DNA from: an uncultured bacterium
Lineage (GTDB): Bacteria; Patescibacteriota; Minisyncoccia; Phycocordibacterales; GWA1-40-21
Assembly (NCBI GenBank): GCA_903831305.1
Contig: CAIKXE010000011.1
Location: forward strand, 12,002-76,001
DNA length: 64,000 bases
Direction: 5' to 3'
Position numbers and translations under genes: made by a program. The stretch's first letter is position 1. The number at the start of each line of letters is the position of its first letter. Shown here one piece after another: positions 3,950 through 39,772 of this stretch. Below the pieces are notes generated by a model that made no database searches, was not told the origin of the DNA, and saw nothing but the letters and a program-made list of their open reading frames with translations.

Positions 3950-3957
3950 TTGTAATT

Positions 3958-22741: not shown

Positions 22742-23410
22742 ATGAAGGAATCTTTAATAAATAAATTAATTCTAATCTCTAAGAATCGGCAAGTAAAAAA
22801 TGATCCATCTCATGACTTTCAACATGTTCAGCGAGTATTAAATCTTGCTGTTGAGATTGGTAAAAAAGTTGAAGCAGATCTTGATATTGTCATTCCTGCG
22901 GCCTTATTTCATGATACGGTTGTTTATCGTAAAGACAGTCCGAAGAGTAAATATGAGACCGATGAAAGTGCTGAAGTTGCTGGTCATATTTTAAAAAAGA
23001 TTCGCGAGTATCCAAAAGAAAAAATCGAAAAAGTAAAGATCTGTATTAGACAGTGTTCTTTTTCTAAGGGTATTATTCCTGATATTTTGGAGTCAAAAGT
23101 ATTACAGGATGCTGATATGCTTGAATCTACTGGAGCCATATCAATTATGCGTACTTTTTCGTCCGGTGGACAAATGAATCGTCCATTCTATGATTTAAAT
23201 GATCCTTTTTGCAAAAAAGGTTTATTCGGAGTACACTCAGGATTGTGGTTGTTTTATAAAAGGTTGTTACTTGTTGAAAAAAGAATGCATACAAAATTTG
23301 CTAAAAAGATAGCAAAAAGAAGGACTAATTTTCTGATAACTTTTCTAGATGAATTTAAAAAAGAGCTTATTGAAACCGAAATAATTTATGAAAAAAGAAG
23401 ATCTAGATAA
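22742..23410 (+). CDS. HD-domain phosphohydrolase (YedJ-like)
   Basis: SHDFQHVQRV, AALFHD, LQDADML..TGA..I.R.F. Confidence 0.9.
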   Translation: MKESLINKLILISKNRQVKNDPSHDFQHVQRVLNLAVEIGKKVEADLDIVIPAALFHDTVVYRKDSPKSKYETDESAEVAGHILKKIREYPKEKIEKVKICIRQCSFSKGIIPDILESKVLQDADMLESTGAISIMRTFSSGGQMNRPFYDLNDPFCKKGLFGVHSGLWLFYKRLLLVEKRMHTKFAKKIAKRRTNFLITFLDEFKKELIETEIIYEKRRSR

Positions 23411-24263
23411 CACTGGTAATCTGTGTGATAAATTGGACCTTGTTGGAGAAAACAGACGGCAGGATGCTGAAAAAATTATAAAAATAGTAGAACACGAAAA
23501 GGAATCGTGGAATAATATATTTGAGGAGGAATTAAAAAATATAGATAATGTAAATTATTTATCTTACTGGTGGAGTGATCATTATTGCCAGATTGTAGAA
23601 TATATAGATAAATCCATAAAGTTTAAATGTACACCATCAATTTTGGAAGCTGGGTGTGGCTCTGGTCAATCAACTCTTCAGTTGTCAACAAAAACAAAGT
23701 TGATATCACTTTTGGATATTTCACCAGTTGCACTTGATTTAGCTAAAAAACTTTCAAAAATATACAATAAAAATAATGTCGAATTTATAGAGGGTAATAT
23801 TTTATCTATGCCATTTAAAGACAAGGAATATGATCTTACCTGGAATATTGGCGTTTTGGAGCATTACGATAAAACATTGATTCCTTATTTGCTAAAGGAA
23901 ATGATTAGGGTAACAAAAGATGGTGGTTATATAGCAATAGGAATACCTAATCCAAAGTCTTTGGCTATAAAAAAAGCTAAATTTCTCGCAAACGAGAAGT
24001 TAAAAAATCTTTTAAAATTTATCCCTGGTTATAGACTAGATACTGAAAATTTATATTCAGCTAAAGAGGTAGAAGAGATTCTTTTTGAAGTTAGTAGAAA
24101 AATAGGGCTTAAATTAAGTGAAATAAAAGTAACCCACGTAGGTAGTCCTTTGTTAGTGTGGTCTCCTAAATTTCTTATTAAGTTTTTTAAAATTTTTGAA
24201 AAATTTGAATTTATAAAAAAAAGAAAGTTTCTAATATTGATAATTGCTAAAATTAATTATTAA
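23388..24263 (+). CDS. class I SAM-dependent methyltransferase
   Basis: ILEAGCGSG, LDIS, GNIL.MPF, GVLEH, EMIRVTKDGG; overlaps the upstream HD gene. Confidence 0.9.
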   Translation: MKKEDLDNTGNLCDKLDLVGENRRQDAEKIIKIVEHEKESWNNIFEEELKNIDNVNYLSYWWSDHYCQIVEYIDKSIKFKCTPSILEAGCGSGQSTLQLSTKTKLISLLDISPVALDLAKKLSKIYNKNNVEFIEGNILSMPFKDKEYDLTWNIGVLEHYDKTLIPYLLKEMIRVTKDGGYIAIGIPNPKSLAIKKAKFLANEKLKNLLKFIPGYRLDTENLYSAKEVEEILFEVSRKIGLKLSEIKVTHVGSPLLVWSPKFLIKFFKIFEKFEFIKKRKFLILIIAKINY

Positions 24264-24269
24264 AATATC

Positions 24270-25727
24270 GTGGCAAACTATTTCAACAAATTTATTAAAA
24301 TTGCAGAAATTAATAAAGATAATGTTGCTATTATCTATCCTATTTATAAAGATGGGATAAATAATGGATGTATAAAATATTTATATATAGATATAATCAA
24401 TCATATTCTATCAGCCGGGCCTATTATCTATAAAACAAATATTAAAAAAAATCCTGTTGGCTTATTTATTCCGAACCATCCATTATTTACGTCTGCACTT
24501 ATTAGCGTCTTATCGCAGGATTTTATTGCCGTTCCGATTAATCCAAAATCAACAAAGGAAATAATTTTAAAAATAATATCTGATAATAATTTAGACGTAA
24601 TTATTACTGATAATCATTATTATCAATATTTGATTGGTATCTGTTCCACTAATCAGGTTATTCTAAAAATAGGTGATATAATTTCGACACCTTCTTTTCA
24701 AAAAATCCCTAAAAGTCAGAAAAAATCTGGTGATATTGCAATTATCTCTTACACCAGTGGTACCTCAGGTAACCCCAAAGGGGCATTAATTACAAACAAG
24801 AATATACTATTTGTAACAATGAAATACTGTAGTATCTATCGTCTTGATAAAAACAGCCATGTATTAGCTGCTCTGCCTCTTTGGCATAATTACGGGACAT
24901 TTGATGTTTTGCTGGATACACTCATTAGTGCAGGAACTATTGTCTTAATGGATGATTGGGTAAGTAAAAAAGCGATTGATATAATACATAAGTACAAAAT
25001 TTCTGTATTTCCTGGTTTCCCATTTATGTTTATGGATATTGTTAATGATGATTCCAGAGAATTAGATTTTTCAACTTTAAAAGTTTGCGAGTCAGGCGGA
25101 TCTGGATTACCTCGCAGATATATTGAGCGGTTTAAGAAAAAGACAGGTATAGTTATAACTGAAGGTTACGGTTCAGCAGAAACCACGTCTCTTACACATA
25201 TAAATAATCTAACTGAGACCAGAAGAGCTGGAAGTATTGGTGAAAATATTCCTGAAGCTTTCTGTAAAATACTAGACCAAGGGGGGAGGAGAGTTAAAAC
25301 TGGTGAATGTGGAGTATTGTGGGTTCGTGGTCCAATGGTTTGTAAAGGTTATTCTAATCTTAAGTCAAACAGTTTTAATGGAAAATGGTTTAATACTGGG
25401 GATATTGCTTGTCTTGATTCGAACAATAATTATTGTGTCGTCGGTAGATTAGATAATACTAAAAAGGTTGATACTGATATTGACTCATATTCAACCAGCG
25501 TCGGGGAAATTTTGTACGAATTTGATGGCTTAATTAAATTTAACATTAAAAAAAAGGCAGGAAATAATTTAGATTATTTGTACGTTGTTTTAAAAGATAA
25601 TAGACGAAGAGCTGATTTCAGAGATTTTTTGAAAAGTAAATTTGATAAAGGTAGGTTCTACAAAATAGTTTTTGTAAAAGATATTCCAATCACGGCAACT
25701 GGTAAAATTAAGCATAGTCTTTCTTAA
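24270..25727 (+). CDS. adenylate-forming (AMP-binding) enzyme 1
   Basis: YTSGTSGNPKG, EGYGSAET, FNTGD, TATGK; degenerate A8 hinge; GTG start. Confidence 0.9.
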   Translation: MANYFNKFIKIAEINKDNVAIIYPIYKDGINNGCIKYLYIDIINHILSAGPIIYKTNIKKNPVGLFIPNHPLFTSALISVLSQDFIAVPINPKSTKEIILKIISDNNLDVIITDNHYYQYLIGICSTNQVILKIGDIISTPSFQKIPKSQKKSGDIAIISYTSGTSGNPKGALITNKNILFVTMKYCSIYRLDKNSHVLAALPLWHNYGTFDVLLDTLISAGTIVLMDDWVSKKAIDIIHKYKISVFPGFPFMFMDIVNDDSRELDFSTLKVCESGGSGLPRRYIERFKKKTGIVITEGYGSAETTSLTHINNLTETRRAGSIGENIPEAFCKILDQGGRRVKTGECGVLWVRGPMVCKGYSNLKSNSFNGKWFNTGDIACLDSNNNYCVVGRLDNTKKVDTDIDSYSTSVGEILYEFDGLIKFNIKKKAGNNLDYLYVVLKDNRRRADFRDFLKSKFDKGRFYKIVFVKDIPITATGKIKHSLS

Positions 25728-25818
25728 ATATTAGCTAATATATAATTGTGGGCTGGTCAGCTTTTTTAAAGAGTAAAATTTAGTGTTTAACTTAAGGACG
25801 CATACTTGTGCGTGTGTG

Positions 25819-25872
25819 TTGAATAAATATGCATTGTATGTTATATTATAAACTATTAAGTTTAATAGTTTA
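25819..25872 (+). promoter_or_regulatory. sigma70-type promoter with a palindromic operator-like site
   Basis: TTGAAT(25819)-17 nt-TATATT(25842) with extended TG; perfect inverted repeat TAAACTATTAA-GT-TTAATAGTTTA at 25849-25872. Confidence 0.55.
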
Positions 25873-25884
25873 AATTAGTAAATT

Positions 25885-27357
25885 ATGTATTTAATATCAC
25901 AGACAACAGGTATAACAACGTTATTAATTTTTGGATTAGTAATGATAGTCATTGTTTATTTTCTGACAAGAAAGCAATTTAACTCCAAAGATGCTTTCTT
26001 GGTGGCAAGACGTGAGGTTGGCTGGCTTCGTGGATCCTTAAGTATTGCTGTAAGTTGGATCTGGGCCCCAGCAGTTTTTATCGCTTCAATGCAGGCCTAC
26101 AATCAAGGTATAGCTGGAGCTTTCTGGTTTATTGTACCTAATGTTGTCTGTTTTTTTGTTTTTGCACCTTTGGCGATTAGGTTAAGGAGGTTTTTACCAG
26201 AAGGATATACCTTGCCGCAGTTTATTTTAAAAAGGTATGATAATGATAAAAAAACTCATTTAGCTTTTCTGGTACTATTTTTTGGTTATCAATTAGGTGC
26301 AATTATTATTAACACATTAGCTGCCGGAGTCTTGTTAAATGCTTTGACTGGCATCAGTTTTTATCTTGTCGTCTCATTGATAATGGTTTTGGTATTAATA
26401 TATGCAATAATGAGTGGTTTAGAGGCTTCAATAATTACTGATGTTATTCAAATGGCAATGGTTCTGCTATTTTGTTTTATTCTAGTCCCGTGGGTAATTA
26501 TAAAAGCCGGTGGCTTTTCTGCAGTTACTGGAGGGTTTGGTGGTATAACTGGAATGTTTGGTAATGTGTTTAACCCTTGGATTGCCTATTCCTTTGGTAT
26601 AGCCACAACACTAAGCTTAATCTCTGGTCCAATTGGTGATCAAATGTTTTTTCAGAGAGTTTATGCTTCAAAAAAAGAGCAAATTGTTAAAACTTTTGTC
26701 GCTGGCGGTTTAATTTTTGGATTAGTTCCAACTATCTTGTGTCTCTTAGGTTTTATCGCAGCCAATCCACATTTTAGTTCCCTTATTACCGTTGCAGATC
26801 CTCAAATGGTGGGACCAGTTGTTATTGGTTATTTCTTACCAAAGATAGCATTAGTGGCGTTCCTTTTTATGGCCTTTGCAGCTTTGGCATCCACTATTGA
26901 TAGTGCATATTGTGCGATAAGTTCATTAGGTACAATAGATATTTATAGAAAATATTTTAATCCGGAAGCTAGTGATAGACAATTGCTAAGTATGTCACGT
27001 AAGGTCATGTTGGCTATGGCACTACTTGGTACTGGAATAGCCCTACTTCAACCTAAGCTTTTATGGGTCTTCTTAATTTATGGTGCTTTAGCATCAGCCG
27101 GTTTTTTCCCAACAGTTTTCAGTCTATATTGGAAAAAATTAAACAAACAAGGAGTGTTTTGGGCAGTTACGCTTTCTTTAATTATCGGTTTACCTCTTTC
27201 GATATATGCCAATATTACAGAGAATGTGAACCTTATTGTGTTGGCGTCAATATTAAGTGTGGTTATCGGATTAATTACTTGTTTGATAGCTGGTTTCTTA
27301 AATAAAAAAACTGTATACAACTTTGCAAGTGGTGAAATCGAGGCAGTTGTCGAATAA
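25885..27357 (+). CDS. sodium:solute symporter (SSS) family transporter
   Basis: About 13 hydrophobic helices; FLVARR, SWIWA, GYTLPQF, GLEASIITDVIQ, STIDS. Confidence 0.9.
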   Translation: MYLISQTTGITTLLIFGLVMIVIVYFLTRKQFNSKDAFLVARREVGWLRGSLSIAVSWIWAPAVFIASMQAYNQGIAGAFWFIVPNVVCFFVFAPLAIRLRRFLPEGYTLPQFILKRYDNDKKTHLAFLVLFFGYQLGAIIINTLAAGVLLNALTGISFYLVVSLIMVLVLIYAIMSGLEASIITDVIQMAMVLLFCFILVPWVIIKAGGFSAVTGGFGGITGMFGNVFNPWIAYSFGIATTLSLISGPIGDQMFFQRVYASKKEQIVKTFVAGGLIFGLVPTILCLLGFIAANPHFSSLITVADPQMVGPVVIGYFLPKIALVAFLFMAFAALASTIDSAYCAISSLGTIDIYRKYFNPEASDRQLLSMSRKVMLAMALLGTGIALLQPKLLWVFLIYGALASAGFFPTVFSLYWKKLNKQGVFWAVTLSLIIGLPLSIYANITENVNLIVLASILSVVIGLITCLIAGFLNKKTVYNFASGEIEAVVE

Positions 27358-27358
27358 A

Positions 27359-28336
27359 ATGAAAAAAATTCTTTTGATAGGTCTAGGCGGTACAATAGCT
27401 TGTTCGGCCACTAAAGAAGGTTTAGTCCCGATGTATTCGCCTGAAAGGTTTCTTTCTCAAGAACCCAGACTTTTAACGGTTGCTCATATAAAGACTATTC
27501 AGTTGATGATGAGGACCATTATCTACCCTAAGGACTGGATAACTATTGCCAAATTCATATCAAAGTCCGTTAAAGATTTTGATGGTTTTGTGATAACGAT
27601 GGGAACAGATACTCTAGCTTATACTTCCTCGATGTTGTCTTTTATGCTTAGAAGTATCAATAAACCTGTAATTATAACCGGGGCCATGATTCCGATCGAG
27701 AAGGAAAATTCTGATGCTAGGAAAAATCTGATAGACAGCGTTATATTCGCCTGTGAACCAACCTCAGGAATTTTTGTTGTCTTTAATGGTAACGTTATCA
27801 GGGGGTGCCGAGCGTCCAAAGTGTCTGGAGTAGAAATTGACGCGTTTAAGAGTATTAATTTTCCTTTGATCGCAAAGATTATTAATGGACAAGTCAAATA
27901 TGATTTATCAATAAAAGAAGAAATTAGAGAAAATAATAAACTCTCTTTAGAGGTAAAAATCGATACAAAAGTATTGGATATTAAGCTTACCCCACAGGTA
28001 GAGCCAGATTTATTTGGGAAGCTTTTAGGTTACAAAGGTTTTGTAATTGAAGGGTATGGTGACGGCAATATATCTGATAATTTAATTCCAGTGATTATAA
28101 AACTAATTAAGGGAGGGAAAGTGGTAGTTTTAGCGTCTCAATGTGCTTACGGCCATGTAGAGCATAAATATAGAGGTGGTCTTATGGCGGTGAAGAATGG
28201 TGCAATTTCGGTCAGAGACATGACTAAGGAAAGTGCCCTTACTAAATTGATGTGGTGTATGGGAAAGACGAAGAATGTAAAAACCATAGGTAATATGATG
28301 ACTAGTAATATGTGCGGCGAAATTAAGATAATATAA
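27359..28336 (+). CDS. type I L-asparaginase/glutaminase-like amidohydrolase
   Basis: GGTIA, GTDTLAYT, KPVIITGA, SDARKN, ASK, GYGDGN, DMTKESALTKL; start set at MKKILL. Confidence 0.9.
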   Translation: MKKILLIGLGGTIACSATKEGLVPMYSPERFLSQEPRLLTVAHIKTIQLMMRTIIYPKDWITIAKFISKSVKDFDGFVITMGTDTLAYTSSMLSFMLRSINKPVIITGAMIPIEKENSDARKNLIDSVIFACEPTSGIFVVFNGNVIRGCRASKVSGVEIDAFKSINFPLIAKIINGQVKYDLSIKEEIRENNKLSLEVKIDTKVLDIKLTPQVEPDLFGKLLGYKGFVIEGYGDGNISDNLIPVIIKLIKGGKVVVLASQCAYGHVEHKYRGGLMAVKNGAISVRDMTKESALTKLMWCMGKTKNVKTIGNMMTSNMCGEIKII

Positions 28337-28340
28337 ATAT

Positions 28341-28982
28341 ATGAGATTGTATTTATCATCATTTAAAATAGGAAATCACCCAGAGAGATTAGCTGATTTA
28401 ACTGATGGTGGTAAGAAAGCGGTCTTTATCGTTAATGCTTTGGATTATAAGTTGGAATCTCGAAATAAATTTTTAGCAAGCGAAATCCAAATGCTTGGTG
28501 AGTTAGGTTATGATGTTGAAGAATTGGATTTGAGGATGTGGTTTGGCAAGAAAGAAAAAGATCTTGAAGAATATCTAAGAACAAAGAATCTCGTTTGGGT
28601 TAATGGAGGGAATTCCTTCTTACTTAGAAGAGCTATGAAACAAAGTGGGTTTGATAAAATTATAACTAAGCTTCTGAAAGAGGACGTGATTGTTTATGCC
28701 GGCTTTAGTGCCGGATGTGCTGTCCTTCATAAGGATTTGCACGGAATTGATATAACTGATGATCCATACATCTTAGCCGAAGGATATCATAAGAATGTTG
28801 AATGGGTGGGTCTCGATATTATTGATTTCAATATTGTGACTCATTTTGATTCTAATCAGAATGAGTCAGACGAGTCCAGAAAGGAGATGAAATTTTATAA
28901 AGATAATAATATACCATTTAAGACATTACGTGACGGTGAGGTCTTAATCGTTAATGGCAAAAATGTAGAAATAATAAAATAA
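28341..28982 (+). CDS. peptidase E (S51, class I glutamine amidotransferase-like)
   Basis: MRLYLSS, VNGGNSFLL, YAGFSAG (nucleophile Ser), VTH, LRDGE. Confidence 0.85.
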   Translation: MRLYLSSFKIGNHPERLADLTDGGKKAVFIVNALDYKLESRNKFLASEIQMLGELGYDVEELDLRMWFGKKEKDLEEYLRTKNLVWVNGGNSFLLRRAMKQSGFDKIITKLLKEDVIVYAGFSAGCAVLHKDLHGIDITDDPYILAEGYHKNVEWVGLDIIDFNIVTHFDSNQNESDESRKEMKFYKDNNIPFKTLRDGEVLIVNGKNVEIIK

Positions 28983-28983
28983 T

Positions 28984-30216
28984 ATGAGATACATAGTTAC
29001 CAAAAATAAACAGATAAAAAAAAGAATGCGCTCTTTTAACGAATATTATTCATTATTAAGAGAGGCAATAGTTAGCGGTAATCTCAAAAGTTCATTAGAC
29101 CGTGGTGCTTTTACGCATCCAAAACAAATCTTAAATCGTGAAATTATAAATTCTCTTGGTCTAAAAAGACATAGGATTTCTTTAGGTTATGGTCAAGAGG
29201 TTGGAGAAGATATCGTCAGAGAAAAGATTGTCGAACGAGAGAATCTTATTCATGGTACAGATTATAATCTAGAAAATGTAACGGTGGTTGCTGGGGCATG
29301 GTTTGGTGTTGAGGTTGTTATTGAGGAAATTACACAAAAATATGCAAATAAGAAACCAAAAATTGCTGTAATTGGCCCCACTCATTATCAGTTGTTCCAA
29401 AGACCAATTGAAGTCCTCGGTTTGGAGGTAATAGGTTTTGACTTCGTAAATTTTAAAGGTAGTACTCCTAAGACAAAGGAAGAAATTGATCAGATATTAA
29501 AATGTAAGCCAAACGTTGTTTTTGTTACTAATCCTAATAATCCAATTGGAGAATATTTTCCATCAAATTTACTTAGGTATCTTATCTCAACATGTAAAAA
29601 GAGGAAAATATTTGTCATTATTGATGAAATGCAGAATTTTTTAGCTACAGATGGTAAAGGAATAAATTATGGAAAATGGATAAAAGCTAAAAATGTTATC
29701 CGTATAGATTCTTTTTCAAAGCATTATGCTTTGGCAGAATATCGCGTTGGATGGGTTATTGCTGATAAAAGTATTATTGGTAGCAGATATACTGGAATCA
29801 CACAACATGTAAGAGGCTTGATGGGTAATGCTCCAAGGGCCGCGAATGATGCCATTGTAAAATTATTAGACTTTGAGATAAACGAGATTAGAAATAAAAT
29901 AGAGCATCCTCTGGGACGAAGAATTAAGCTGTTGTATAAAAAAGAGGATTTTATAATTAAACTTCTTTCTAAGAACCCAAGAATAGAAATAATACATAGA
30001 GATGCCTGTTTTAATTTGACCGTCAGAATAAAAGACTTTCCAAGTGATATAGAAATGTCGAGACGATTGATGAACCGTGGTACTCTAATTATGCCATGCA
30101 CTGGTTATGGGTATCGAACTGAGGACGTGGTTATGAGGATAACTTTTGCGGAAAGATGGAGTAGAATAAAGCATTCCATGGCAGTTCTGACTAGTATATT
30201 GAATGAAAAAAAATGA
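28984..30216 (+). CDS. PLP-dependent class I/II aminotransferase-fold enzyme
   Basis: NPNNPIG, IIDE, SFSK (Schiff-base Lys), YRVGW, MRITFA. Confidence 0.9.
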   Translation: MRYIVTKNKQIKKRMRSFNEYYSLLREAIVSGNLKSSLDRGAFTHPKQILNREIINSLGLKRHRISLGYGQEVGEDIVREKIVERENLIHGTDYNLENVTVVAGAWFGVEVVIEEITQKYANKKPKIAVIGPTHYQLFQRPIEVLGLEVIGFDFVNFKGSTPKTKEEIDQILKCKPNVVFVTNPNNPIGEYFPSNLLRYLISTCKKRKIFVIIDEMQNFLATDGKGINYGKWIKAKNVIRIDSFSKHYALAEYRVGWVIADKSIIGSRYTGITQHVRGLMGNAPRAANDAIVKLLDFEINEIRNKIEHPLGRRIKLLYKKEDFIIKLLSKNPRIEIIHRDACFNLTVRIKDFPSDIEMSRRLMNRGTLIMPCTGYGYRTEDVVMRITFAERWSRIKHSMAVLTSILNEKK

Positions 30217-31607
30217 AAGAAAAAGTTTGGATAAAATTTTATGAAGGAGGTGTCTTAAGGGAAGAATTGACCTTTATACAAGCTGAAGAAAGAATTAAGG
30301 CAAAAGTCGCTGAATTGTCTCAACTTGGTATTGAGAATGGGGATCGTGTTGTAATTAGACTACCTAATTCACCTCTGTGTGTTATAACATATTTGGGAAT
30401 ATACCGTTTGGGTGCCGTAGCTGTTCCCGTCGGTCTATTGGAGGATCAGATTAGGTTGAATTTTATAATCTCTGACTCCGGATCAAAAGCAATAATTGAT
30501 AATTCTGGTATTAAGATCTTACCTTTAAAATCTTTGAATAATAAAATAAAGAGTGTCTGTACGATAATTTATACTTCTGGGACGACTGGTACGCCTAAGG
30601 GTGTATGTTTAAATTGGAATAACTGGGTGAAGAATGCAGAGTCGTTAATTAAGCACCATCATATTAATGAAAATACGGTTTTTGCGAGTCCTCTTTTTTT
30701 GTCGCATTGTAACGCTCATGGTTTGGCAATGATCACTACATATATCTCGAAATGTACGTGGATATTGTTTGATAAAAGTCCGAAAAATATCTTGGAAATA
30801 ATTTCAAAAGAAAAAGTACGTATTCTTAGTGTGGTCCCGTCCATTTTATATGATATTTATAATTCAAATAAAAATTGGAAGCCAAATAAAGAACTTCGGT
30901 ATATCATAACCGCGGCTGCGCCACTGAGCCCCGATCTGTTACAAAGCGTTATGGATACTTGGAAGACTAGGGTAATTCAAGGTTATGGTCTCTCAGAAAG
31001 TACTAATTTTTCATGTACTATGCCGACCAATCTAAGTGAAAAGGTATATAAACAGGTAATGTTTCCATGGCCATCTATTGGTGTGGCATTAAGTGGAGTT
31101 AAAATAAAGATAGGTCGTAAAAATAAAGAGGAAGAATTGGGGGAATTATTTATATCATCAAAATCAAACTTTAGTGGATATTGGAATAAAGATAAGATCA
31201 AACTAAGGCCGACTATTCATACGGGCGATTGGGGTTATTACAAAACTATAGCACGAAAAAGATACTTTTATTTTAAGGGAAGAATTAAGGAAATAATAAA
31301 TAGGGGTGGTGAAAAAATTAGTCCAATTGAATTGGAATATGAGTTAAGAAAAAATGGCTTGAAGGGAGAATTCGCTATAATATCATTGCGTAGTGAAAAA
31401 TATGGTGAAGAAGTTGGCCTTGCAGTTTGCAAACATTTTGATCTGTCGTTAATCGAGAAGATACCAAGATATCGTAGACCAAAACAGGTATTTCTTCTAA
31501 AGACTCTCTTTTATACACCGAATGGTAAATTACAAAGGAGGAAAATTTCAGAATTTTGTTGTAATAGTAAAGCTGAAATACTAATTAACCCGGATCCATT
31601 GACTTAA
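30213..31607 (+). CDS. adenylate-forming (AMP-binding) enzyme 2, acyl-CoA ligase-like
   Basis: YTSGTTGTPKG, QGYGLSE, HTGD, GRIKEIINRGGEKISPIELE, TPNGKLQR; ATGA overlap with the upstream gene. Confidence 0.92.
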   Translation: MKEKVWIKFYEGGVLREELTFIQAEERIKAKVAELSQLGIENGDRVVIRLPNSPLCVITYLGIYRLGAVAVPVGLLEDQIRLNFIISDSGSKAIIDNSGIKILPLKSLNNKIKSVCTIIYTSGTTGTPKGVCLNWNNWVKNAESLIKHHHINENTVFASPLFLSHCNAHGLAMITTYISKCTWILFDKSPKNILEIISKEKVRILSVVPSILYDIYNSNKNWKPNKELRYIITAAAPLSPDLLQSVMDTWKTRVIQGYGLSESTNFSCTMPTNLSEKVYKQVMFPWPSIGVALSGVKIKIGRKNKEEELGELFISSKSNFSGYWNKDKIKLRPTIHTGDWGYYKTIARKRYFYFKGRIKEIINRGGEKISPIELEYELRKNGLKGEFAIISLRSEKYGEEVGLAVCKHFDLSLIEKIPRYRRPKQVFLLKTLFYTPNGKLQRRKISEFCCNSKAEILINPDPLT

Positions 31608-31627
31608 TCTCCTTGAGATGGTAAACT
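31599..31627 (+). promoter_or_regulatory. sigma70-type promoter of the LysRS-like gene
   Basis: TTGACT-17 nt-TAAACT with TG at the extended -10 position. Confidence 0.65.
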
Positions 31628-31654
31628 TGGTTTAGATTTTGTTTATAGGTAAGA

Positions 31655-32980
31655 ATGTACATTAACAAGCCACCCATAACGGTGGCAGAAAGGGAGTGTT
31701 ATATGTGGCAGATAAAGGTTCTTCTTGAGAAGTTCGTGTCGTTACTTGGTGTCGAAGTCAAGGTACGTGGACGGATCATCTCGATTCGTCGAATGAAGAG
31801 ATCAGTATTCGCTGATCTTTTTTCCATCGACTCGAAAGTACAATGTCGCTTTGATCCGGCAGGCGGTCTCTGCCCGAACAATGGCGACTTGGTTGAGGTC
31901 GTTGGGAAATGTGTTGTGTCAAAGAGTGGTGAATCGACGATTGACGTCTCAAGCGTAGTGGTTGTGGGCAAATGGTCTGCTAACATCGACTTTAAGGAAG
32001 TGTCGAATGGCGGATCTAGTCCACTTCTGGCTTTCATGCCAGGGGCGTATGGTCGCTTCCACTACTCACAGGTCGCTAGAAACCAAGTGAGGACATTCTT
32101 GACTTCCGAGGGTTATTTCGAGGTTCAGACCCCAATTCTTGGAAGGAATTACAACGGAGGTAGATCCTTTCCTGTATCGAGCTTTTGTTCTGGTAACAGG
32201 ATTGGTTTCAACAGAACGACGGTGGAAGATCGCATGCAAGCATTGATTGCAATGGGGTACGAAAGAGTTTTCCAGGTCGGTAGTGTGTTTCGTAGCGGAA
32301 AGGAATTAACCTTCCTCGAAGGGTACGAAGCATTCACTGAATGGGAAGCCGGCAAATGTCGTATCAAGCAGTTGCTTGCATCTGTAGTAGAAAAGCTCAT
32401 TCAAAGCGGAATCGGGAGTCCAAATGACACATCCGACCACCTGATTGGTTGTGATTGGTTAGAAGTGGATTTCCTTGACAGTGTGAGTGAGTCGACTAAG
32501 GTGTCGTCACAGCAGATAATGGAGGTAGACAGTACTCTTGCTGGATTTCTCAGAGATAGAGGGGTCATTAAGGAGGAAGAAGTATCGCCAGAAACCATCG
32601 CCGACGAACTGGCTAATCTTGTCGCCGAGGCGACGGGTGTGCCAACGATAGTCAATGGTTTTCCGGTCTGGTCATCTCCGTTGTATGCATTAAGTGAGGA
32701 TGGTGGTGAACGACTCGTTCGTAGTCGCATGTACATTCCAGGTCAAAAGGGTGGGTTTGAAATAGGTATGCAGGAAAACAATTACGAGAGATTTACTGAA
32801 AGGATTTCCCGACAGCGAAAGATGTGGAATTTGGCTACTGATGACGACCGAGTGAGAGAGTCGGATCTCTCTACGGTTATATCAGGTGGCTTACCACCAA
32901 CCTTTGGCTACGGGCTCAGTCCAGACAGACTCGTAAAGATATGGCGTCAGGATTGCAGTAATGACCCATATCGTGAGTAG
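31655..32980 (+). CDS. divergent class II lysyl-tRNA synthetase paralogue (OB fold + catalytic domain)
   Basis: VRGRIISIR..FADL OB fold; motif 1 GYFEVQTPIL; motif 2 ERVFQVGSVFR; motif 3 GLPPTFGYGLSPDRL. Confidence 0.85.
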   Translation: MYINKPPITVAERECYMWQIKVLLEKFVSLLGVEVKVRGRIISIRRMKRSVFADLFSIDSKVQCRFDPAGGLCPNNGDLVEVVGKCVVSKSGESTIDVSSVVVVGKWSANIDFKEVSNGGSSPLLAFMPGAYGRFHYSQVARNQVRTFLTSEGYFEVQTPILGRNYNGGRSFPVSSFCSGNRIGFNRTTVEDRMQALIAMGYERVFQVGSVFRSGKELTFLEGYEAFTEWEAGKCRIKQLLASVVEKLIQSGIGSPNDTSDHLIGCDWLEVDFLDSVSESTKVSSQQIMEVDSTLAGFLRDRGVIKEEEVSPETIADELANLVAEATGVPTIVNGFPVWSSPLYALSEDGGERLVRSRMYIPGQKGGFEIGMQENNYERFTERISRQRKMWNLATDDDRVRESDLSTVISGGLPPTFGYGLSPDRLVKIWRQDCSNDPYRE

Positions 32981-33013
32981 GTGTTTCTCGAAGGTTTGAG
33001 AACCCATCCATGA

Positions 33014-33043
33014 AGCCGCCGAGGTTACACTCGGCGGCTCTTT
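33014..33043 (+). terminator. intrinsic terminator-like hairpin
   Basis: AGCCGCCGAG-GTTACA-CTCGGCGGCT followed by CTTT. Confidence 0.7.
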
Positions 33044-33102
33044 CATCATTTATAAATATTTTTTCGCTTTCTTTTTATGTTTTTTTATGTTTAGATAGTT
33101 GT

Positions 33103-33507
33103 ATGTTGAACGATATTTTAACTATTTCAATCTCAGAGAAGTATATCGGTAGTAGTGGGTGTGTGAATCGCACTCATTATCTGAACTTACTTATGGAAGC
33201 ACAAAATATTTCTTTGATTAAGCACAAAATAAGTTTTGATGATATTGAGAAAAAAAATAATATACATTTTGTTCAAAGAGCATTTTCTATTGAATTTATT
33301 AAGCCTTTATTTCTGAATGATGAGGTCGTTATAAAAATATCAATACCCACACTTGGTTTGTCCAGTTTTGTATTAAAACAAGAGATTACAAAAAATAATC
33401 AAATTGTAACAACTGCCCAGACCGTGTATGTTGCCGTTGACAACTCAAAGAATAAAATATTATTACCTGATAGTATTCGAACTTTATTTTCATTAAAAAA
33501 GGGGTAA
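33103..33507 (+). CDS. hot-dog fold acyl-CoA thioesterase (4HBT/YbgC-like)
   Basis: GCVNRTHYLNLLMEA, IEFIKPL..NDEV, SSFVLKQEI, V.VD......LPD; start moved past the terminator hairpin. Confidence 0.8.
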   Translation: MLNDILTISISEKYIGSSGCVNRTHYLNLLMEAQNISLIKHKISFDDIEKKNNIHFVQRAFSIEFIKPLFLNDEVVIKISIPTLGLSSFVLKQEITKNNQIVTTAQTVYVAVDNSKNKILLPDSIRTLFSLKKG

Positions 33508-33520
33508 TTATATAAATAAT

Positions 33521-34006
33521 ATGAAACTTACGCCTAAAATTGCAAAATTAACAGCTGAAAAGTATTTTAGAAAGCATAAAGATAAGGAGGAACGGGACTT
33601 TGCTAGGGTTCATACTGCGGCCGTAGTTGAAATAGCAGTAATTCTTGCAAAAAAGTTTAAAACGGATGTTTCTACAGTAGAAATATCTGGCTGGCTTCAT
33701 GATATCGGTTCTATCGTAGAGAGATCTGATCACGCTAAATACAGCCTTGATTTATTGAACAAAGAAGGATTTGAAGTCAGTCCGTTGATTAAGGATTGTA
33801 TTCTTAATCACGGGACAGATGGCAAACCGGAATCTAAAGAGGCTAAAATACTACAGATAGCGGACAAGCTCAGTATTTTGAGTATTCCTGTACTTAAACT
33901 CTTATTTAAACAAAAAAGCATCACCCCGTATGATATTGAATTTGTTGATAAAATGACAACAGGAGCGGTAGCTTACCTGAAAGAATTAAGCACAAAAGGA
34001 ATATAA
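33521..34006 (+). CDS. HD-domain protein
   Basis: HTAAV, GWLHDIG, DHAKYS, ILNH, ILQIADKLS. Confidence 0.9.
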   Translation: MKLTPKIAKLTAEKYFRKHKDKEERDFARVHTAAVVEIAVILAKKFKTDVSTVEISGWLHDIGSIVERSDHAKYSLDLLNKEGFEVSPLIKDCILNHGTDGKPESKEAKILQIADKLSILSIPVLKLLFKQKSITPYDIEFVDKMTTGAVAYLKELSTKGI

Positions 34007-34617
34007 TGCTTCACGATATTACTTTCATAGCAATTGGCGTCATAGTTCTAGGAATAATCATCTTTCTCATCTCCAAAAACCTAAAACGAACCGCCCAAGT
34101 GATGTCCGGCTGGGGGATATACGAGGCGTATAATTTCTCTGTCGATTATGTTCTCTGGCCGGTCTTGCAGTCCCTCTACGGACTGTATGGTATTTTGATT
34201 TTAATTGTCATGGCCTTGATCAACAACTTTATCATCCTACTCTGGTATCACCGGAAGAAAGTTGACTGGTTGGGAGTCAGTGAAGTGGAGAATTTGAAGG
34301 CCAAGGGTCACTTATGGGTCCATCAGGTCAGTAATCATGAGAACTTGGTAAGAAGATTCAGTCTGTACCTCCCAGCCAAGTTCCTGCAATTTATGATTTG
34401 GATTCTTAATAAGAATGATATCTTTGCTTTCGTAACCCTTTCCGTCTGGCAGGATTCTTTTATTACTACCATTTTTCTCCGACACGGCTCCTTTGAAAAG
34501 TTAGATAAGCGTGATTACTTTATCTTTATTTTTAGCACCATTTTTGGCTGTTTGGGTTGGAGTTTGCTTATGCAGGTCATAATTACCGCCATCAGAGCTA
34601 TTTTAGGTTTTTTCTGA
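34006..34617 (+). CDS. hypothetical integral membrane protein
   Basis: Several hydrophobic helices; TAATG stop/start overlap with the HD gene. Confidence 0.75.
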   Translation: MLHDITFIAIGVIVLGIIIFLISKNLKRTAQVMSGWGIYEAYNFSVDYVLWPVLQSLYGLYGILILIVMALINNFIILLWYHRKKVDWLGVSEVENLKAKGHLWVHQVSNHENLVRRFSLYLPAKFLQFMIWILNKNDIFAFVTLSVWQDSFITTIFLRHGSFEKLDKRDYFIFIFSTIFGCLGWSLLMQVIITAIRAILGFF

Positions 34618-34630
34618 TATAATGTCTGAC

Positions 34631-35008
34631 ATGGATCGGAAATCTAAAATCCTGCTGACAGTTTTCCTTTTGCTTTTGATTGGCACTATTGCTGTGACGG
34701 TTTATAAGTATGGAATCAAGAAGGATTATCTAATTGCCGGGCAAGCTCCTTGTGATATTCAAACGGAGGCCTGTTTTTATTTTCCTTGTGAAGAAGGTGA
34801 TGCAACCTGTGATCTGGCCGAAATAGAATATTACAAAAAAGTCGAAAAGAAAGCCTACAACATTACCTTATGTGACCCAGCGGTGGAAGGTTGTAACCCT
34901 CTGGTTTGTACAGAAGGGGAAAATGATTGCACTGTCACCTATTGCTCCTCTGATACGCTGGATGAAGGAGAAGAATGTTCAACCGCTACACCCGCAATAC
35001 AAGAATAA
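34631..35008 (+). CDS. membrane-anchored cysteine-rich protein
   Basis: N-terminal TM helix then 10 Cys; ATG 7 nt after TGATATAAT. Confidence 0.75.
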   Translation: MDRKSKILLTVFLLLLIGTIAVTVYKYGIKKDYLIAGQAPCDIQTEACFYFPCEEGDATCDLAEIEYYKKVEKKAYNITLCDPAVEGCNPLVCTEGENDCTVTYCSSDTLDEGEECSTATPAIQE

Positions 35009-35017
35009 TATACTGTT

Positions 35018-35770
35018 ATGAACCTAGACGAAATCTACACACCGCTCGAAGAAGCGAAGGAAGAAATACAGAGAAGATGGGAAGACAAGGAGCTGAAGAA
35101 AAAAGTGGATGAGTTTTTAGGTGGCGATATTCCGGATTTTCTGCTGGATAGTCCCAAGGCATATTTGGCTAGGCACGTGGCTAGCCCTAATTTTGAATTT
35201 TTCCGGTTTTTGGAGCAAGCTCACAATACAAATATGGATTATATTGTCCCCGAATATTTAAATGATAAATTTCATCCGGCCAATTCAATGAAATATCACC
35301 TGGGAAGAATCTTTATTTATAACGGAAAGAACAAAAACGGCGGTCATAATATTGAGTCTGAAACTATTATTGATTTTAATAAATCAAATGGAAAGAAGTT
35401 TACTGAAATGGTAACCATGTGGGATGAAAATTTTGTCGATTTTCACCATCGTATTTTAAAAGATAAGGTTTGCGATTCCCATCTAAAGGTTTGTAATATG
35501 TCAGATTGGATAAAAAAAATGGGGGATACCCCGGAAAAGTTTTATGTGTATTTTTTAGCCCTATTCATTAGAAATGGAATTTTATTTGAAAACTTTTTAA
35601 ACAACAATGAAGAAAGGATGTTTACCCTGGAAAATGTTATCCCTAGCTTAAAAATTTTACTTAAAAAGTTTGGTGTTAAACCTTTAATTGTTAGGCTTGT
35701 ACCCAAAGAAACAGAGGAAGATATTTATTGGTTATGTTATAATAATAGTGTTAAAGATCATTTAAAATAA
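35018..35770 (+). CDS. cytoplasmic hypothetical protein directly upstream of a sensor kinase
   Basis: 250-aa ORF ending 2 nt before the kinase start; enzyme-like stretches ARHVASPNFE, EYLNDKF, VDFHH, GILFENF. Confidence 0.8.
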   Translation: MNLDEIYTPLEEAKEEIQRRWEDKELKKKVDEFLGGDIPDFLLDSPKAYLARHVASPNFEFFRFLEQAHNTNMDYIVPEYLNDKFHPANSMKYHLGRIFIYNGKNKNGGHNIESETIIDFNKSNGKKFTEMVTMWDENFVDFHHRILKDKVCDSHLKVCNMSDWIKKMGDTPEKFYVYFLALFIRNGILFENFLNNNEERMFTLENVIPSLKILLKKFGVKPLIVRLVPKETEEDIYWLCYNNSVKDHLK

Positions 35771-35772
35771 TT

Positions 35773-37404
35773 ATGTCATTTGATTTAATAAAGAATATTG
35801 AGATATGCTTTGCCTATAGATCTGAAGCTCCTCTAGCTTTGATTTACTATTCTCACCTTTCCACGGTTTGTATTGCAATTATTGTGGGTATCTTTGTTTT
35901 TGTAAAGGACAAAAATTCTCTATTAAGTATGCTCCTTTTGACGCTTTCTGCCTCCTTTTCTTCTTGGGTATTGTTGGATTATATTATATGGAATTGGGGG
36001 TATAACAGTATTTTGACAATGGTGGCCTGGTCGCTACTCGGAATTATGGCTGGTTTGATCTCAGTTTCATCCTTCTATTTTTTCTATGTTTTTTCTTTTA
36101 AAAAGGACTTGAGTTTTTCTAGTAAGAGTCTGTTGTTTGCACTATTACTGCCGATATTGTTTTTTACGCCTACAGTATTCAATCTTACCCATTTTGATTT
36201 AATTAACTGTGAAGCAACTGAAAACTTTTATTTTACTAATTATTACTATGCTCTTGGAGGACTTGCTATGGTTGGGATTTTACTTTTGGCCATTTTTGGC
36301 TGGAAAAGAGCTGAAAAGACCTTTAAAAAAGAAATAGCATTAATGGCTACGGGGTTAGAATTATTCTTATTTTCATTTTTCTCACTGGGATTTATTTCAA
36401 GCTATTTTGATAATTATAGTATTGAGTTTTATGGTTTAGTCGGCATTGCTATATTTATGGCCTTCCTCGCTTATCTCATTGTTAAATTTAAGACTTTTAA
36501 TATCAAATTAATTGGAACACAAGCCCTGGTCTGGGCGTCGGCGATTCTGATTGGGTCCCAATTCTTCTTTATTCAGACGAATGTAAATCGAGTTCTGACT
36601 GGCATTACTTTAATTGTCTTTTCCTTTGTCGGCTGGATGATTGTCCGTAGTGTCAAGAAGGAAATCAGACAGAAGCAGGAGATTGAGCATTTGTTAAAGA
36701 TCAAGTCAGAGTTTATAGATATTGTGTCTCATCAGTTACGAACCCCGGTGTCCGTGATAAAAGGAATGGCCTCAATGTTGAAAGAAGGGGATTTAGATGA
36801 TGCCCCTAAAGAGCAAAAGGACCAATTCATTGCCGGTATTTATGAGAAGTCGGAAAAGTTGGCAGATATTTTGAACGACATTTTGAAAGCAGCGGAATTG
36901 GATATGGACAATTTTACTTTTGCCCCTGGTAGCGTCAAACCGGTTAATTTGGTTTTGCTGGTAAAAGGAATATTTACTGACCTCACTAGTCTGGCGGAAA
37001 CCAAAAAGCTTAATTATCAAATTAAAATCAGCCCAGAAGTCAGTGATTTAAATTTACTGACCGACGAGTCATTCTTAAAACATGCCTTTCAAAATACCAT
37101 AGACAATGCCATTAAATATTCCCGAGAAGGTGGTTTTGTAACTGTGGACATAAGTAAAGAAGGCAACTATTTTCTGTGCAAGATTATTGATAGTGGAATC
37201 GGCATACCGGCGGATCAGGCTAGCCGATTATTTGAAAAGTTCTTCCGGGCCAAGAATGCGGTTGACGCCCACGCTTATGGTACCGGCCTAGGTTTGTTTA
37301 TTACCAGGAAGATTTTTGAAGCTCATGCCGGAGGGAAAATCTGGTTTGAGTCGGTTGTAGATAAGGGCACCACTTTTTACATAAAGTTACCAATAGTCAA
37401 ATAG
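35773..37404 (+). CDS. multi-TM (HisKA_7TM-like) sensor histidine kinase
   Basis: Polytopic N-terminus; H-box VSHQLRTP, N-box NTIDNAIKYS, DSGIGI, FEKFFR, GTGLGL. Confidence 0.95.
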   Translation: MSFDLIKNIEICFAYRSEAPLALIYYSHLSTVCIAIIVGIFVFVKDKNSLLSMLLLTLSASFSSWVLLDYIIWNWGYNSILTMVAWSLLGIMAGLISVSSFYFFYVFSFKKDLSFSSKSLLFALLLPILFFTPTVFNLTHFDLINCEATENFYFTNYYYALGGLAMVGILLLAIFGWKRAEKTFKKEIALMATGLELFLFSFFSLGFISSYFDNYSIEFYGLVGIAIFMAFLAYLIVKFKTFNIKLIGTQALVWASAILIGSQFFFIQTNVNRVLTGITLIVFSFVGWMIVRSVKKEIRQKQEIEHLLKIKSEFIDIVSHQLRTPVSVIKGMASMLKEGDLDDAPKEQKDQFIAGIYEKSEKLADILNDILKAAELDMDNFTFAPGSVKPVNLVLLVKGIFTDLTSLAETKKLNYQIKISPEVSDLNLLTDESFLKHAFQNTIDNAIKYSREGGFVTVDISKEGNYFLCKIIDSGIGIPADQASRLFEKFFRAKNAVDAHAYGTGLGLFITRKIFEAHAGGKIWFESVVDKGTTFYIKLPIVK

Positions 37405-37431
37405 GTATTTAGTAGTATAATTAAGATAAAT

Positions 37432-37809
37432 ATGAAAAAACTATTATACATTGATGATGATCAAGAACAATTAGACCTCTATAAAATGTCTTTTGCTATT
37501 AACGCCCCGCAAATTGATTTCTACACGGAAAGTGATCCGTTTAAGTCTATTAAAAGGATTAGAGAAATAAAACCAGATGTTGTGCTTTTGGATTTGGTAA
37601 TGTCCGCGGAAATGAGTGGAATCGATGTTCTTAAGCTTATTCGCAAGCAGGAAGATATCAAGGATATTTTGATAATTGCCTTTACTAATTCTATGCTTAC
37701 TAGTGTAGTCTCTGAGCTGAATAGTCTGGAAGTAACGGAAATCTGGGAGAAGATAAAGGGTACACCGAAGAGCTTTGCGCTGAAGATAAATAAGATTTTA
37801 AATTTGTAG
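37432..37809 (+). CDS. single-domain response regulator (receiver only)
   Basis: IDDD, PDVVLLDLVM, SGIDVL, AFTN, conserved Lys. Confidence 0.92.
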   Translation: MKKLLYIDDDQEQLDLYKMSFAINAPQIDFYTESDPFKSIKRIREIKPDVVLLDLVMSAEMSGIDVLKLIRKQEDIKDILIIAFTNSMLTSVVSELNSLEVTEIWEKIKGTPKSFALKINKILNL

Positions 37810-39599: not shown

Positions 39600-39636
39600 T
39601 ATGGAGTCGGAAAAATTGAATAAATAGTAATCTAAA

Positions 39637-39772
39637 TCAGAGAGTAAAATCTCTGACATGATGAAAAAATCTGCAACAGTTTAAAGAACCCAGCATATGG
39701 GGCTACTGTTGCAGTCATATCGGGAAACCGGTATGGAGGGCCACAAGCTCTCACCTATGTGCTGGGCTTTTT
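39637..39772 (+). ncRNA. unclassified structured RNA / cis-regulatory leader
   Basis: Five helices read by eye, two of them crossing (39671-80 with 39705-14; 39689-701 with 39754-66), plus a GAAA tetraloop stem and a 3' U-run. Confidence 0.55.

What the first reader, a model, noticed from the sequence alone, without database searches (positions are those of the whole stretch)
22742..34006. Carrier-protein-free biosynthesis-like cluster with two adenylating ligases and a LysRS paralogue in a CPR-type genome
Seen: eleven co-oriented genes, several abutting or overlapping (HD/MTase overlap, ATGA coupling, gaps of 1-6 nt): HD hydrolase, SAM-MTase, AMP-ligase 1, SSS transporter, asparaginase-like, peptidase E, PLP enzyme, AMP-ligase 2, LysRS paralogue, hot-dog thioesterase, HD. 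No acyl/peptidyl carrier protein, condensation or ketosynthase gene is present. Known: stand-alone ANL enzymes such as NovL, McbA and CfaL act as amide synthetases, class II aaRS paralogues can act as amino-acid ligases, and CPR genomes are generally poor in biosynthetic pathways. Inference: a pathway that imports a precursor and builds or remodels a small acylated amino-acid or peptide metabolite. Asparaginase and peptidase E, both Asp/Asn-directed families, hint at Asn/Asp chemistry. I recognise no described pathway with this gene set.
Basis: partly seen in the sequence, partly recalled or inferred. Interest (0 to 1): 0.85.

Follow-up and report, generated by a model that had tools for sequence, protein, structure and literature searches.

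The report
Mobile operon with rebuilt lysyl-tRNA synthetase
Inside a longer row of unrelated genes, a tiny-genome bacterium carries a rare, conserved block built around a copy of the lysine tRNA-charging enzyme that has lost most of its ATP-site residues and likely moves lysine from charged tRNA onto a small molecule that its two neighbour enzymes are predicted to make.

Summary
All eleven genes are real and co-oriented, but they are not one unit. Homology with other genomes covers only 25880-33479. The fixed core is three genes: a PLP enzyme, an oxalyl-CoA-synthetase-like ligase (ANL2) and a LysRS paralogue (LysP). It is contiguous in 9 of 11 other LysP-bearing lineages (CPR- and Woesearchaeota-labelled or unnamed), usually with the SSS transporter (7 of 9) and asparaginase (6 of 9). 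The two HD genes, the methyltransferase and ANL1 were found in 0 of 9; ANL1's relatives belong to a different module. LysP keeps the anticodon domain and alpha-amino residues but has lost the motif-2 loop, the adenine-stacking Phe and both Mg-binding Glu. An intact lysS lies beside it in 5 of 11 lineages. Best reading (0.4): an AcmF-like aminoacyl-tRNA-dependent transferase in a carrier-free pathway. Main rival: a tRNA deacylase for a lysine analogue (0.25). Product unknown, nothing assayed. This scan had noted the same trio before, on another genome.

The parts
25885..27357 (+). Sodium:solute symporter (SSF), usual accessory gene; first gene of the conserved block
   Evidence: PF00474; present in 7 of 9 other trio lineages; homology block starts at 25880
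27359..28336 (+). Type I asparaginase, usual accessory gene; likely supplies Asp and/or ammonia
   Evidence: TIGR00519 over cut-off; GGTI, GTDT and RASK motifs present; 6 of 9 lineages
28341..28982 (+). Peptidase E (S51) family hydrolase, optional gene
   Evidence: PF03575; GFSAG and THF motifs; 3 of 9 lineages
28984..30216 (+). Core gene 1: fold-type I PLP enzyme of an unnamed family (K246 Schiff-base Lys, DExQ instead of DExY, several invariant Arg)
   Evidence: PF00155; 76 clusters; conserved columns; model pLDDT 94.5; AspAT-Ib-like fold at 14-20% identity
30213..31607 (+). Core gene 2: stand-alone ANL adenylating enzyme (ANL2), nearest solved relatives are oxalyl-CoA synthetases; all catalytic motifs intact
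   Evidence: PF00501; PDB 5ie0 and 6qjz are the only hits at E<=1e-30; alignment; motifs
31703..32980 (+). Core gene 3: LysRS paralogue (LysP), OB anticodon domain plus remodelled class II catalytic domain; longest ORF starts at 31655
   Evidence: own clade with SH-aLRT 98 in a quick tree
33010..33045 (+). GC-rich hairpin after LysP, likely terminator closing the core transcript
   Evidence: strong hairpin after LysP in 5 of 5 loci, z -2.9 to -4.0 against mononucleotide shuffles; not listed by the consensus terminator scan
33103..33507 (+). Hot-dog thioesterase, loosely attached (after the hairpin)
   Evidence: PF03061/PF13279; shared only with L009/L012, 1 of 9 lineages
22742..23410 (+). HD hydrolase; not part of the conserved system
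   Evidence: 0 of 9 trio lineages; a 68% identical copy lies in a congener, G008, with no core gene on the 20 kb fetched
23388..24263 (+). SAM methyltransferase; not part of the conserved system
   Evidence: 0 of 9 trio lineages
24270..25727 (+). ANL1, second AMP-ligase from a different module; lacks the usual CoA-ligase hinge motif
   Evidence: own small family at 34-53% identity; relatives sit beside AsnB-like, SDR, APH-like and ArgRS genes; AsnB not found in G000; 0 of 9 trio lineages
33521..34006 (+). Second HD protein; not part of the conserved system, overlaps the next gene block
   Evidence: 0 of 9 trio lineages; -1 nt overlap with 34006

Best explanation
The real unit is a mobile operon (25885-32980) whose LysRS-derived protein has lost most ATP-site residues and likely acts as an aminoacyl-tRNA-dependent transferase, predicted to move a lysyl group from charged tRNA-Lys onto a small acceptor that the PLP enzyme and the adenylating ligase likely build. 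Shown: gene content, synteny, fold, residue losses and selection. Inferred: (1) SSS imports a precursor, and asparaginase and peptidase E free Asp or ammonia; (2) the PLP enzyme remodels an amino acid; (3) ANL2 activates a small acid as acyl-AMP or acyl-CoA and forms an amide without a carrier protein; (4) LysP binds Lys-tRNA through its OB domain and runs the second half-reaction of a synthetase backwards, with the acceptor in the emptied AMP pocket; (5) the intact lysS beside it in some lineages supplies donor or gives self-resistance. The product is not identified; a lysyl-amide that mimics lysyl-AMP is one candidate.
For: Trio contiguous in 9 of 11 other LysP lineages. Pairwise identities of ANL2 and LysP co-vary over 9 loci (Spearman 0.77; PLP-LysP 0.57; pairs not independent). 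In 37 LysP sequences (LysU numbers recalled): anticodon F and Q 37/37, E240 and E278 equivalents 37/37, Y280 36/37, R262 36/37; the F274 position is never F, the E414 position is R/K/M, the E421 position is never E, motif-3 Gly is S/N/D, and 7 residues of the motif-2 loop are deleted. New invariant residues (N167, T189, W339, Y344, G371, Q373, E374) point to an active site under selection. LysRS fold confirmed. Intact lysS adjacent in 5 of 11 lineages; the three genomes checked hold another LysRS elsewhere; three of the cluster copies form their own clade (SH-aLRT 98). Precedent: AcmF lacks ATP-binding residues, uses Ala-tRNA made by the cluster-encoded AlaRS AcmD, and has a hydrolase partner AcmE (PMC12945691, passages).
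Against: No assay. The side-chain pocket is changed (F426 position G 37/37, E428 position Q 37/37, N424 position E/D), so the bound aminoacyl group may not be plain lysine. Both 'arginine tweezers' are mostly kept (36/37 and 33/37), and the residue two after R262 is E or D in 20/37, so residual nucleotide binding is not excluded. This genome and G045 have only one LysRS. In G041 the cluster contig also duplicates TyrRS and ArgRS, so that 'extra' lysS may be a binning artefact. Two Saccharibacteria-labelled loci have LysP with an ABC importer, and no PLP-family gene was found in those MAGs. SSS proteins are normally importers (own knowledge), and no exporter recurs. The PLP family also occurs without ANL2 and LysP in about 20 loci.
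Confidence: 0.4

Rival explanations
1. LysP is a trans-editing deacylase. It removes a lysine analogue from mischarged tRNA-Lys, while the PLP enzyme and ANL2 either degrade that analogue (imported as food) or make it; the second lysS discriminates against it.
For: Loss of the ATP site with tRNA and alpha-amino contacts kept fits hydrolysis equally well; F426-to-G widens the pocket and an acidic residue sits next to the acyl carbon. Importer + asparaginase + peptidase + CoA-ligase-like enzyme + thioesterase reads like catabolism. Precedents: CtdA beside a canavanine-utilisation operon (PMC10018355, passages) and deacylases as self-resistance markers in non-canonical amino-acid clusters (PMC13149037, abstract, section 7 and passages).
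Against: The deacylases in those papers are AlaX or B3/4 folds, not a synthetic class II site. New invariant residues in and around the former nucleotide pocket suggest a second bound substrate (inference).
Confidence: 0.25
2. LysP is non-catalytic: a lysine- or tRNA-binding regulatory or scaffold subunit (like HisZ or SLIMP), possibly pairing with LysRS or the partner enzymes.
For: No ATP site; such paralogues are known (PMC9437257, passages); adjacency to lysS.
Against: About a dozen invariant pocket residues in 37 sequences, several of them new; the C-terminal 'IRDVILFP'-type segment of LysRS is replaced.
Confidence: 0.13
3. Split aminoacylation: ANL2 activates a non-standard amino acid made by the PLP enzyme, and LysP loads it onto a tRNA with U35, bypassing ATP use by the synthetase fold.
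For: ANL2 and LysP are adjacent in every trio locus and co-vary most tightly; the anticodon triad is kept and the side-chain pocket is altered.
Against: LysP occurs without a detected PLP partner and without adjacent ANL2 in two loci. No tRNA-Lys, -Asn or -Asp gene lies in the 18 sources scanned. ANL2 has the His-type motif of acyl-CoA ligases, not the Asp of amino-acid A domains (motif meaning recalled).
Confidence: 0.1
4. One reading: all eleven genes form one pathway with two ligases, and LysP is an ATP-dependent amino-acid ligase.
For: Co-orientation and tight junctions; a recent local recruitment of ANL1 and the MTase cannot be excluded.
Against: HD1, MTase, ANL1 and HD2 in 0 of 9 trio lineages; homology edges at 25880 and 33479; ANL1's usual AsnB-like partner not found in the genome; LysP ATP-site losses.
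Confidence: 0.05
5. Random pile-up of unrelated cassettes with no shared function.
For: True of the flanks: S66, NUDIX, GrpB, HD and the kinase block occur separately in relatives.
Against: Core order conserved from about 80% down to about 40% protein identity across bacteria- and archaea-labelled contigs; dN/dS 0.05-0.19.
Confidence: 0.02

Closest known systems
AcmF / AcmD / AcmE of ascamycin biosynthesis (class II AlaRS-like aminoacyl-tRNA transferase)
   Same: Class II synthetase-derived protein that keeps tRNA recognition, lacks ATP-binding residues, and sits with an intact cognate synthetase and a hydrolase (PMC12945691, passages).
   Different: LysP derives from class IIb LysRS with an OB anticodon domain; no nucleoside-sulfamate genes are present; hosts are CPR/DPANN-labelled, not Streptomyces; activity untested.
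SbzA and the altemicidin / SB-203207 (sbz) cluster
   Same: PLP core enzyme + AMP-binding enzymes + a synthetase copy that transfers an amino acid from tRNA; cupin and GNAT genes appear beside some relatives of this PLP family.
   Different: sbz uses carrier proteins and a class I IleRS with residual charging activity. The PLP enzyme here is 410 aa against 523 for SbzP. PseP is Foldseek's top row but tied with ordinary aminotransferases, rank 29 by sequence (E 3e-10) and not among VIA's top 50.
Class II lysyl-tRNA synthetase (LysS/LysU)
   Same: Same two-domain fold (TM 0.67-0.77 by query), anticodon and alpha-amino residues.
   Different: 18-24% identity; motif-2 loop deleted; adenine, Mg and side-chain residues replaced; separate clade.
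EpmA (GenX/PoxA), EF-P beta-lysine ligase
   Same: LysRS paralogue with a role outside normal charging (PMC9437257, passages).
   Different: EpmA lacks the OB domain and uses ATP (recalled); LysP scores 44.5 bits against a cut-off of 286.9; no radical-SAM EpmB gene lies in the block.
Stand-alone tRNA deacylases (CtdA, AlaX-type BesG/AlfB)
   Same: A tRNA-acting protein beside amino-acid-modifying enzymes and often a synthetase.
   Different: Different folds; these papers name no LysRS-derived deacylase in the passages read (0 hits for 'lysyl' or 'LysRS' in PMC13149037).
Oxalyl-CoA synthetase AAE3 family (for ANL2)
   Same: Best solved relatives; shared GRIKEIINRGGEKISP hinge.
   Different: E about 1e-32 only; pocket motif H-C/V-N-A-H-G instead of H-V-H-G; about 45 residues shorter in the N-terminal domain.

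Membership tests
Class II LysRS (canonical) | OB anticodon domain plus class II catalytic domain | tested here: met
   Pfam, model and Foldseek
Class II LysRS (canonical) | Intact motif-2 loop, adenine-stacking Phe, Mg-binding Glu pair, motif-3 Gly | tested here: not met
   7-residue deletion; Phe 0/37; E414 and E421 positions 0/37 Glu; Gly 0/37
Class II LysRS (canonical) | Score over the lysS family cut-off | tested here: not met
   92 vs 427.6 bits (TIGR00499); 108 vs 468 (PRK00484)
EpmA/GenX | Catalytic domain only, score over TIGR00462 cut-off | tested here: not met
   OB domain present; 44.5 vs 286.9 bits
aaRS-like aminoacyl-tRNA-dependent transferases (AcmF kind) | Synthetase fold with tRNA-recognition part kept and ATP residues lost | tested here: met
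   both arginine tweezers mostly kept
aaRS-like aminoacyl-tRNA-dependent transferases (AcmF kind) | Intact cognate synthetase encoded in the cluster | tested here: inconclusive
   Absent from this window's cluster; adjacent in 5 of 11 other lineages; one of three duplications may be misbinning
aaRS-like aminoacyl-tRNA-dependent transferases (AcmF kind) | Aminoacyl transfer from charged tRNA to a small acceptor | not testable with these tools
   needs an assay
SbzP/PseP beta-NAD-alkylating PLP enzymes | Specific structural or sequence likeness above general fold-type I | tested here: inconclusive
   Foldseek rank 1 but tied (8e-20 vs 1e-19); sequence rank 29; not in VIA top 50
SbzP/PseP beta-NAD-alkylating PLP enzymes | NAD-binding residues F413, Y418, F457, R466, Y699 (PMC13518217) | not tested
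   no residue-level alignment to PseP was obtained
Azaindane (sbz) cluster | Carrier proteins, SbzQ dioxygenase and SbzN/O/H genes | tested here: not met
   no PP-binding or ACPS in the genome; none of these families among the eleven genes
GntC guanitoxin-type cyclodehydratase | Score over NF041364 cut-off | tested here: not met
   88.5 vs 415 bits, barely above generic aminotransferase models
NRPS/PKS-type cluster | Carrier protein and phosphopantetheinyl transferase | tested here: not met
   0 matches in G000
Trans-editing tRNA deacylases | AlaX, B3/4, YbaK or DTD fold | tested here: not met
   LysP is a class II synthetic-site fold; deacylase activity itself is untestable here

The most novel reading that the evidence does not exclude
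CPR bacteria and DPANN archaea, thought to lack secondary metabolism, exchange a compact carrier-free operon in which a class IIb LysRS has been rebuilt into an ATP-independent Lys-tRNA transferase that finishes a lysyl-adenylate mimic aimed at the LysRS of hosts or competitors, with a second lysS as immunity. The same PLP family has also recruited a degenerate ProRS, which suggests a wider set of synthetase-derived pathways.
Probability: 0.2. Interest if true: 0.88.

Novelty: new variant of a known kind. Interest (0 to 1): 0.6.

Why it matters
It defines a small, testable three-gene system in organisms with almost no biosynthetic capacity. A LysRS-derived enzyme that uses or edits charged tRNA without ATP would add class IIb to the short list of synthetase folds repurposed for non-ribosomal chemistry (reviews read list LysU, PoxA and LysX as the LysRS paralogues: PMC9437257, passages). 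Either leading reading, transferase or deacylase, marks an unknown lysine-related metabolite in the ecology of CPR and DPANN symbionts. The 11-gene, two-ligase picture should be dropped.

Full report
Observation. The window is C11:12002-76001 of a 760,696-base, 13-contig genome, 98.67% complete, whose relatives are 0.5-0.9 Mb. Its name is not given; 'CPR-type' is an inference from size and from its LysRS grouping with those of CPR-labelled genomes. Junctions are 23-nt overlap, 6, 157, 1, 4, 1, -4, 95, 122 and 13 nt. No carrier domain, no ACPS and no asparagine synthetase were found in the genome. Only three class IIb matches exist in the genome: one on C5, an intact LysRS on C8 and the paralogue. 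Co-orientation with short gaps continues on both sides, so it does not delimit a cluster.

What is conserved. I fetched loci with the PLP protein and with alignments of the PLP and LysP families and mapped 49 of them against the window's proteins (the other loci were weak generic aminotransferase hits and were left out). After collapsing repeated contigs and near-identical copies, LysP occurs in 11 other lineages. In 9 of them PLP-ANL2-LysP are contiguous in that order (one has a GNAT inserted). These are labelled Falkowbacteria, Shapirobacteria, Parcubacteria, Woesearchaeota or are unnamed. Among the 9: SSS in 7, asparaginase in 6, peptidase E in 3, thioesterase in 1, and HD1, MTase, ANL1 and HD2 in 0; some contigs are short, so absence is limited to what was assembled. 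A Caldithrix-labelled contig has SSS-to-ANL2 and ends there. The other 2 lineages (Saccharibacteria-labelled) have LysP behind an NMT1-type ABC importer, and the PLP family was not found in those MAGs. Independently, 11 longest-contig lengths are shared between 37 LysP hits and 75 PLP hits. The nearest locus matches the window in one block, 25880-33479, at 78.7% nucleotide identity; dN/dS is 0.05-0.19 for its seven genes (own NG86 script). A strong hairpin follows LysP in 5 of 5 loci folded, which places the thioesterase outside the likely transcript. The system is rare: 7 loci in the pattern scan of 185,579 genomes, 0 of 400 sampled genomes of the phylum, 0 of 40 relatives with a close PLP gene. 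tRNA genes and a serine recombinase flank some copies.

The flanks. ANL1 has its own small family. Its relatives in gut Clostridia/Bacilli MAGs sit with an AsnB-like amidotransferase, an SDR, an APH-like kinase and sometimes ArgRS (8 of 80 loci examined). It was not found in 300 phylum genomes, and the window's copy departs from several family-conserved positions. S66, NUDIX, GrpB, HD1 and the downstream kinase block occur in congeners without the core. The region is an accreted island.

LysP. Homologues fall from 100% to 34% identity (38 clusters) and then drop to ordinary LysRS at 23-26%; a profile search adds more distant members and three N-terminal fusions of no Pfam family. The model (pLDDT 90.6) matches LysRS structures at 17-24% identity. 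Using E. coli LysU numbers (recalled), 37 sequences keep the anticodon F85 and Q96 (37/37), E240 and E278 (37/37), Y280 (36/37), R262 (36/37) and R480 (33/37). They lose 7 residues of the motif-2 loop, F274 (0/37), E414 (R 32, M 3, K 2), E421 (0/37) and G477 (S/N/D), and change N424 to E/D, F426 to G and E428 to Q. The roles of the two arginines and of the motif-2 Glu, His, Asn and Phe in nucleotide binding are from passages of PMC5919687 and PMC5091859; the Mg and lysine-pocket roles are recalled. The register of residues 366-374 rests on gap-free alignment of short-hairpin members and an intermediate family and on strand and helix ends in the model. A quick tree (the careful search did not finish) puts 13 LysP rows in one clade (SH-aLRT 98) apart from canonical LysRS.

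The lysS link. An intact lysS lies beside LysP or the trio in 5 of 11 lineages, with canonical motifs. The three genomes that could be checked hold another LysRS elsewhere. In two of them ArgRS, TyrRS and TrpRS are single; in the third the cluster contig also duplicates TyrRS and ArgRS and may be misbinned. Three cluster copies from differently labelled hosts form one clade (98) apart from the housekeeping clade. The window's genome and G045 have no extra copy.

Mechanism. A protein that can hold a tRNA and an alpha-amino acyl group but not ATP can transfer that group to an acceptor, hydrolyse it, or merely bind. I favour transfer (0.4): new invariant residues line the vacated pocket, and the arrangement matches AcmF/AcmD/AcmE, where an ATP-blind class II paralogue uses aminoacyl-tRNA from a cluster-encoded synthetase and a hydrolase reverses the step (PMC12945691, passages). 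Editing of a lysine analogue (0.25) fits the widened pocket and the importer, and has precedent in other folds (PMC10018355, passages; PMC13149037, abstract, section 7 and passages). A non-catalytic role (0.13) and split aminoacylation (0.1) remain. None was assayed; expression is unknown.

Novelty. Synthetase-derived transferases are a known kind; a LysRS-derived one with this partner set was not found in the searches named nor in passages of two reviews (PMC9437257, PMC12945691). PMC13518217 was read in passages for the sbz cluster. Earlier notes of this scan describe the same trio on another genome; they are not independent support, my reading was stated before I saw them, and one is marked as partly fallen on later check. 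Verdict: the 11-gene claim fails, the 3-gene core (6 genes in this genome) is real, rare and undescribed as far as searched. New variant of a known kind, interest 0.6.

Noticed in passing
L033:438-1964: A PLP-family homologue (41%) lies directly after a cupin and a 509-aa ProRS-like protein with degenerate motifs 2 and 3: a second synthetase paralogue recruited by the same PLP family.
   Followed up: partly
P0163, P0165, P0166: A further LysRS-like family with a motif-2 loop 3 residues short, E414/E421 positions replaced and Y280 lost; forms its own clade. Context unknown.
   Followed up: partly
P0150, P0154, P0157: LysP members with 150-180 extra N-terminal residues of no Pfam family.
   Followed up: partly
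L144-L149, L154: Recurring module of AsnB-like amidotransferase + ANL1-type ligase + SDR + APH-like kinase, with ArgRS-like genes in some, and PLP, radical-SAM or PHP genes; looks like a separate undescribed pathway.
   Followed up: partly
L011:7759-16033 (G009): A congener carries a different enzyme row (alkaline-phosphatase-fold, SHMT-like, 30% PLP homologue, HAD, GTP cyclohydrolase II, glutamyl-tRNA-reductase-like) before the same kinase block.
   Followed up: partly
window 34006-37809: Block of three proteins with no Pfam family plus a membrane histidine kinase and response regulator; repeated on C9 of this genome and common in congeners, and parts of it lie near PLP-family clusters in L011, L014 and L100.
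   Followed up: no
window 31703-32980: LysP has GC3 0.48 against 0.25-0.35 for its partners; the same skew holds in L009, L013, L015 and L099 but not in L014, L016, L100 or L106.
   Followed up: yes
window 39629-39752: LOOT RNA motif (RF03000, 78.8 bits).
   Followed up: no
G000 C2:14545-14618: tRNA-Ile with a TAT anticodon; no tRNA-Asp was detected in the assembly.
   Followed up: no
window 2153-7974: GmrSD-type nuclease and a large restriction-modification fusion upstream, consistent with an island hot spot.
   Followed up: no
L032:9995-10761; L013:4815-6288: A broken 59% PLP copy beside a serine recombinase (L032); SSS split in L013 but whole in L102, probably an assembly difference.
   Followed up: no
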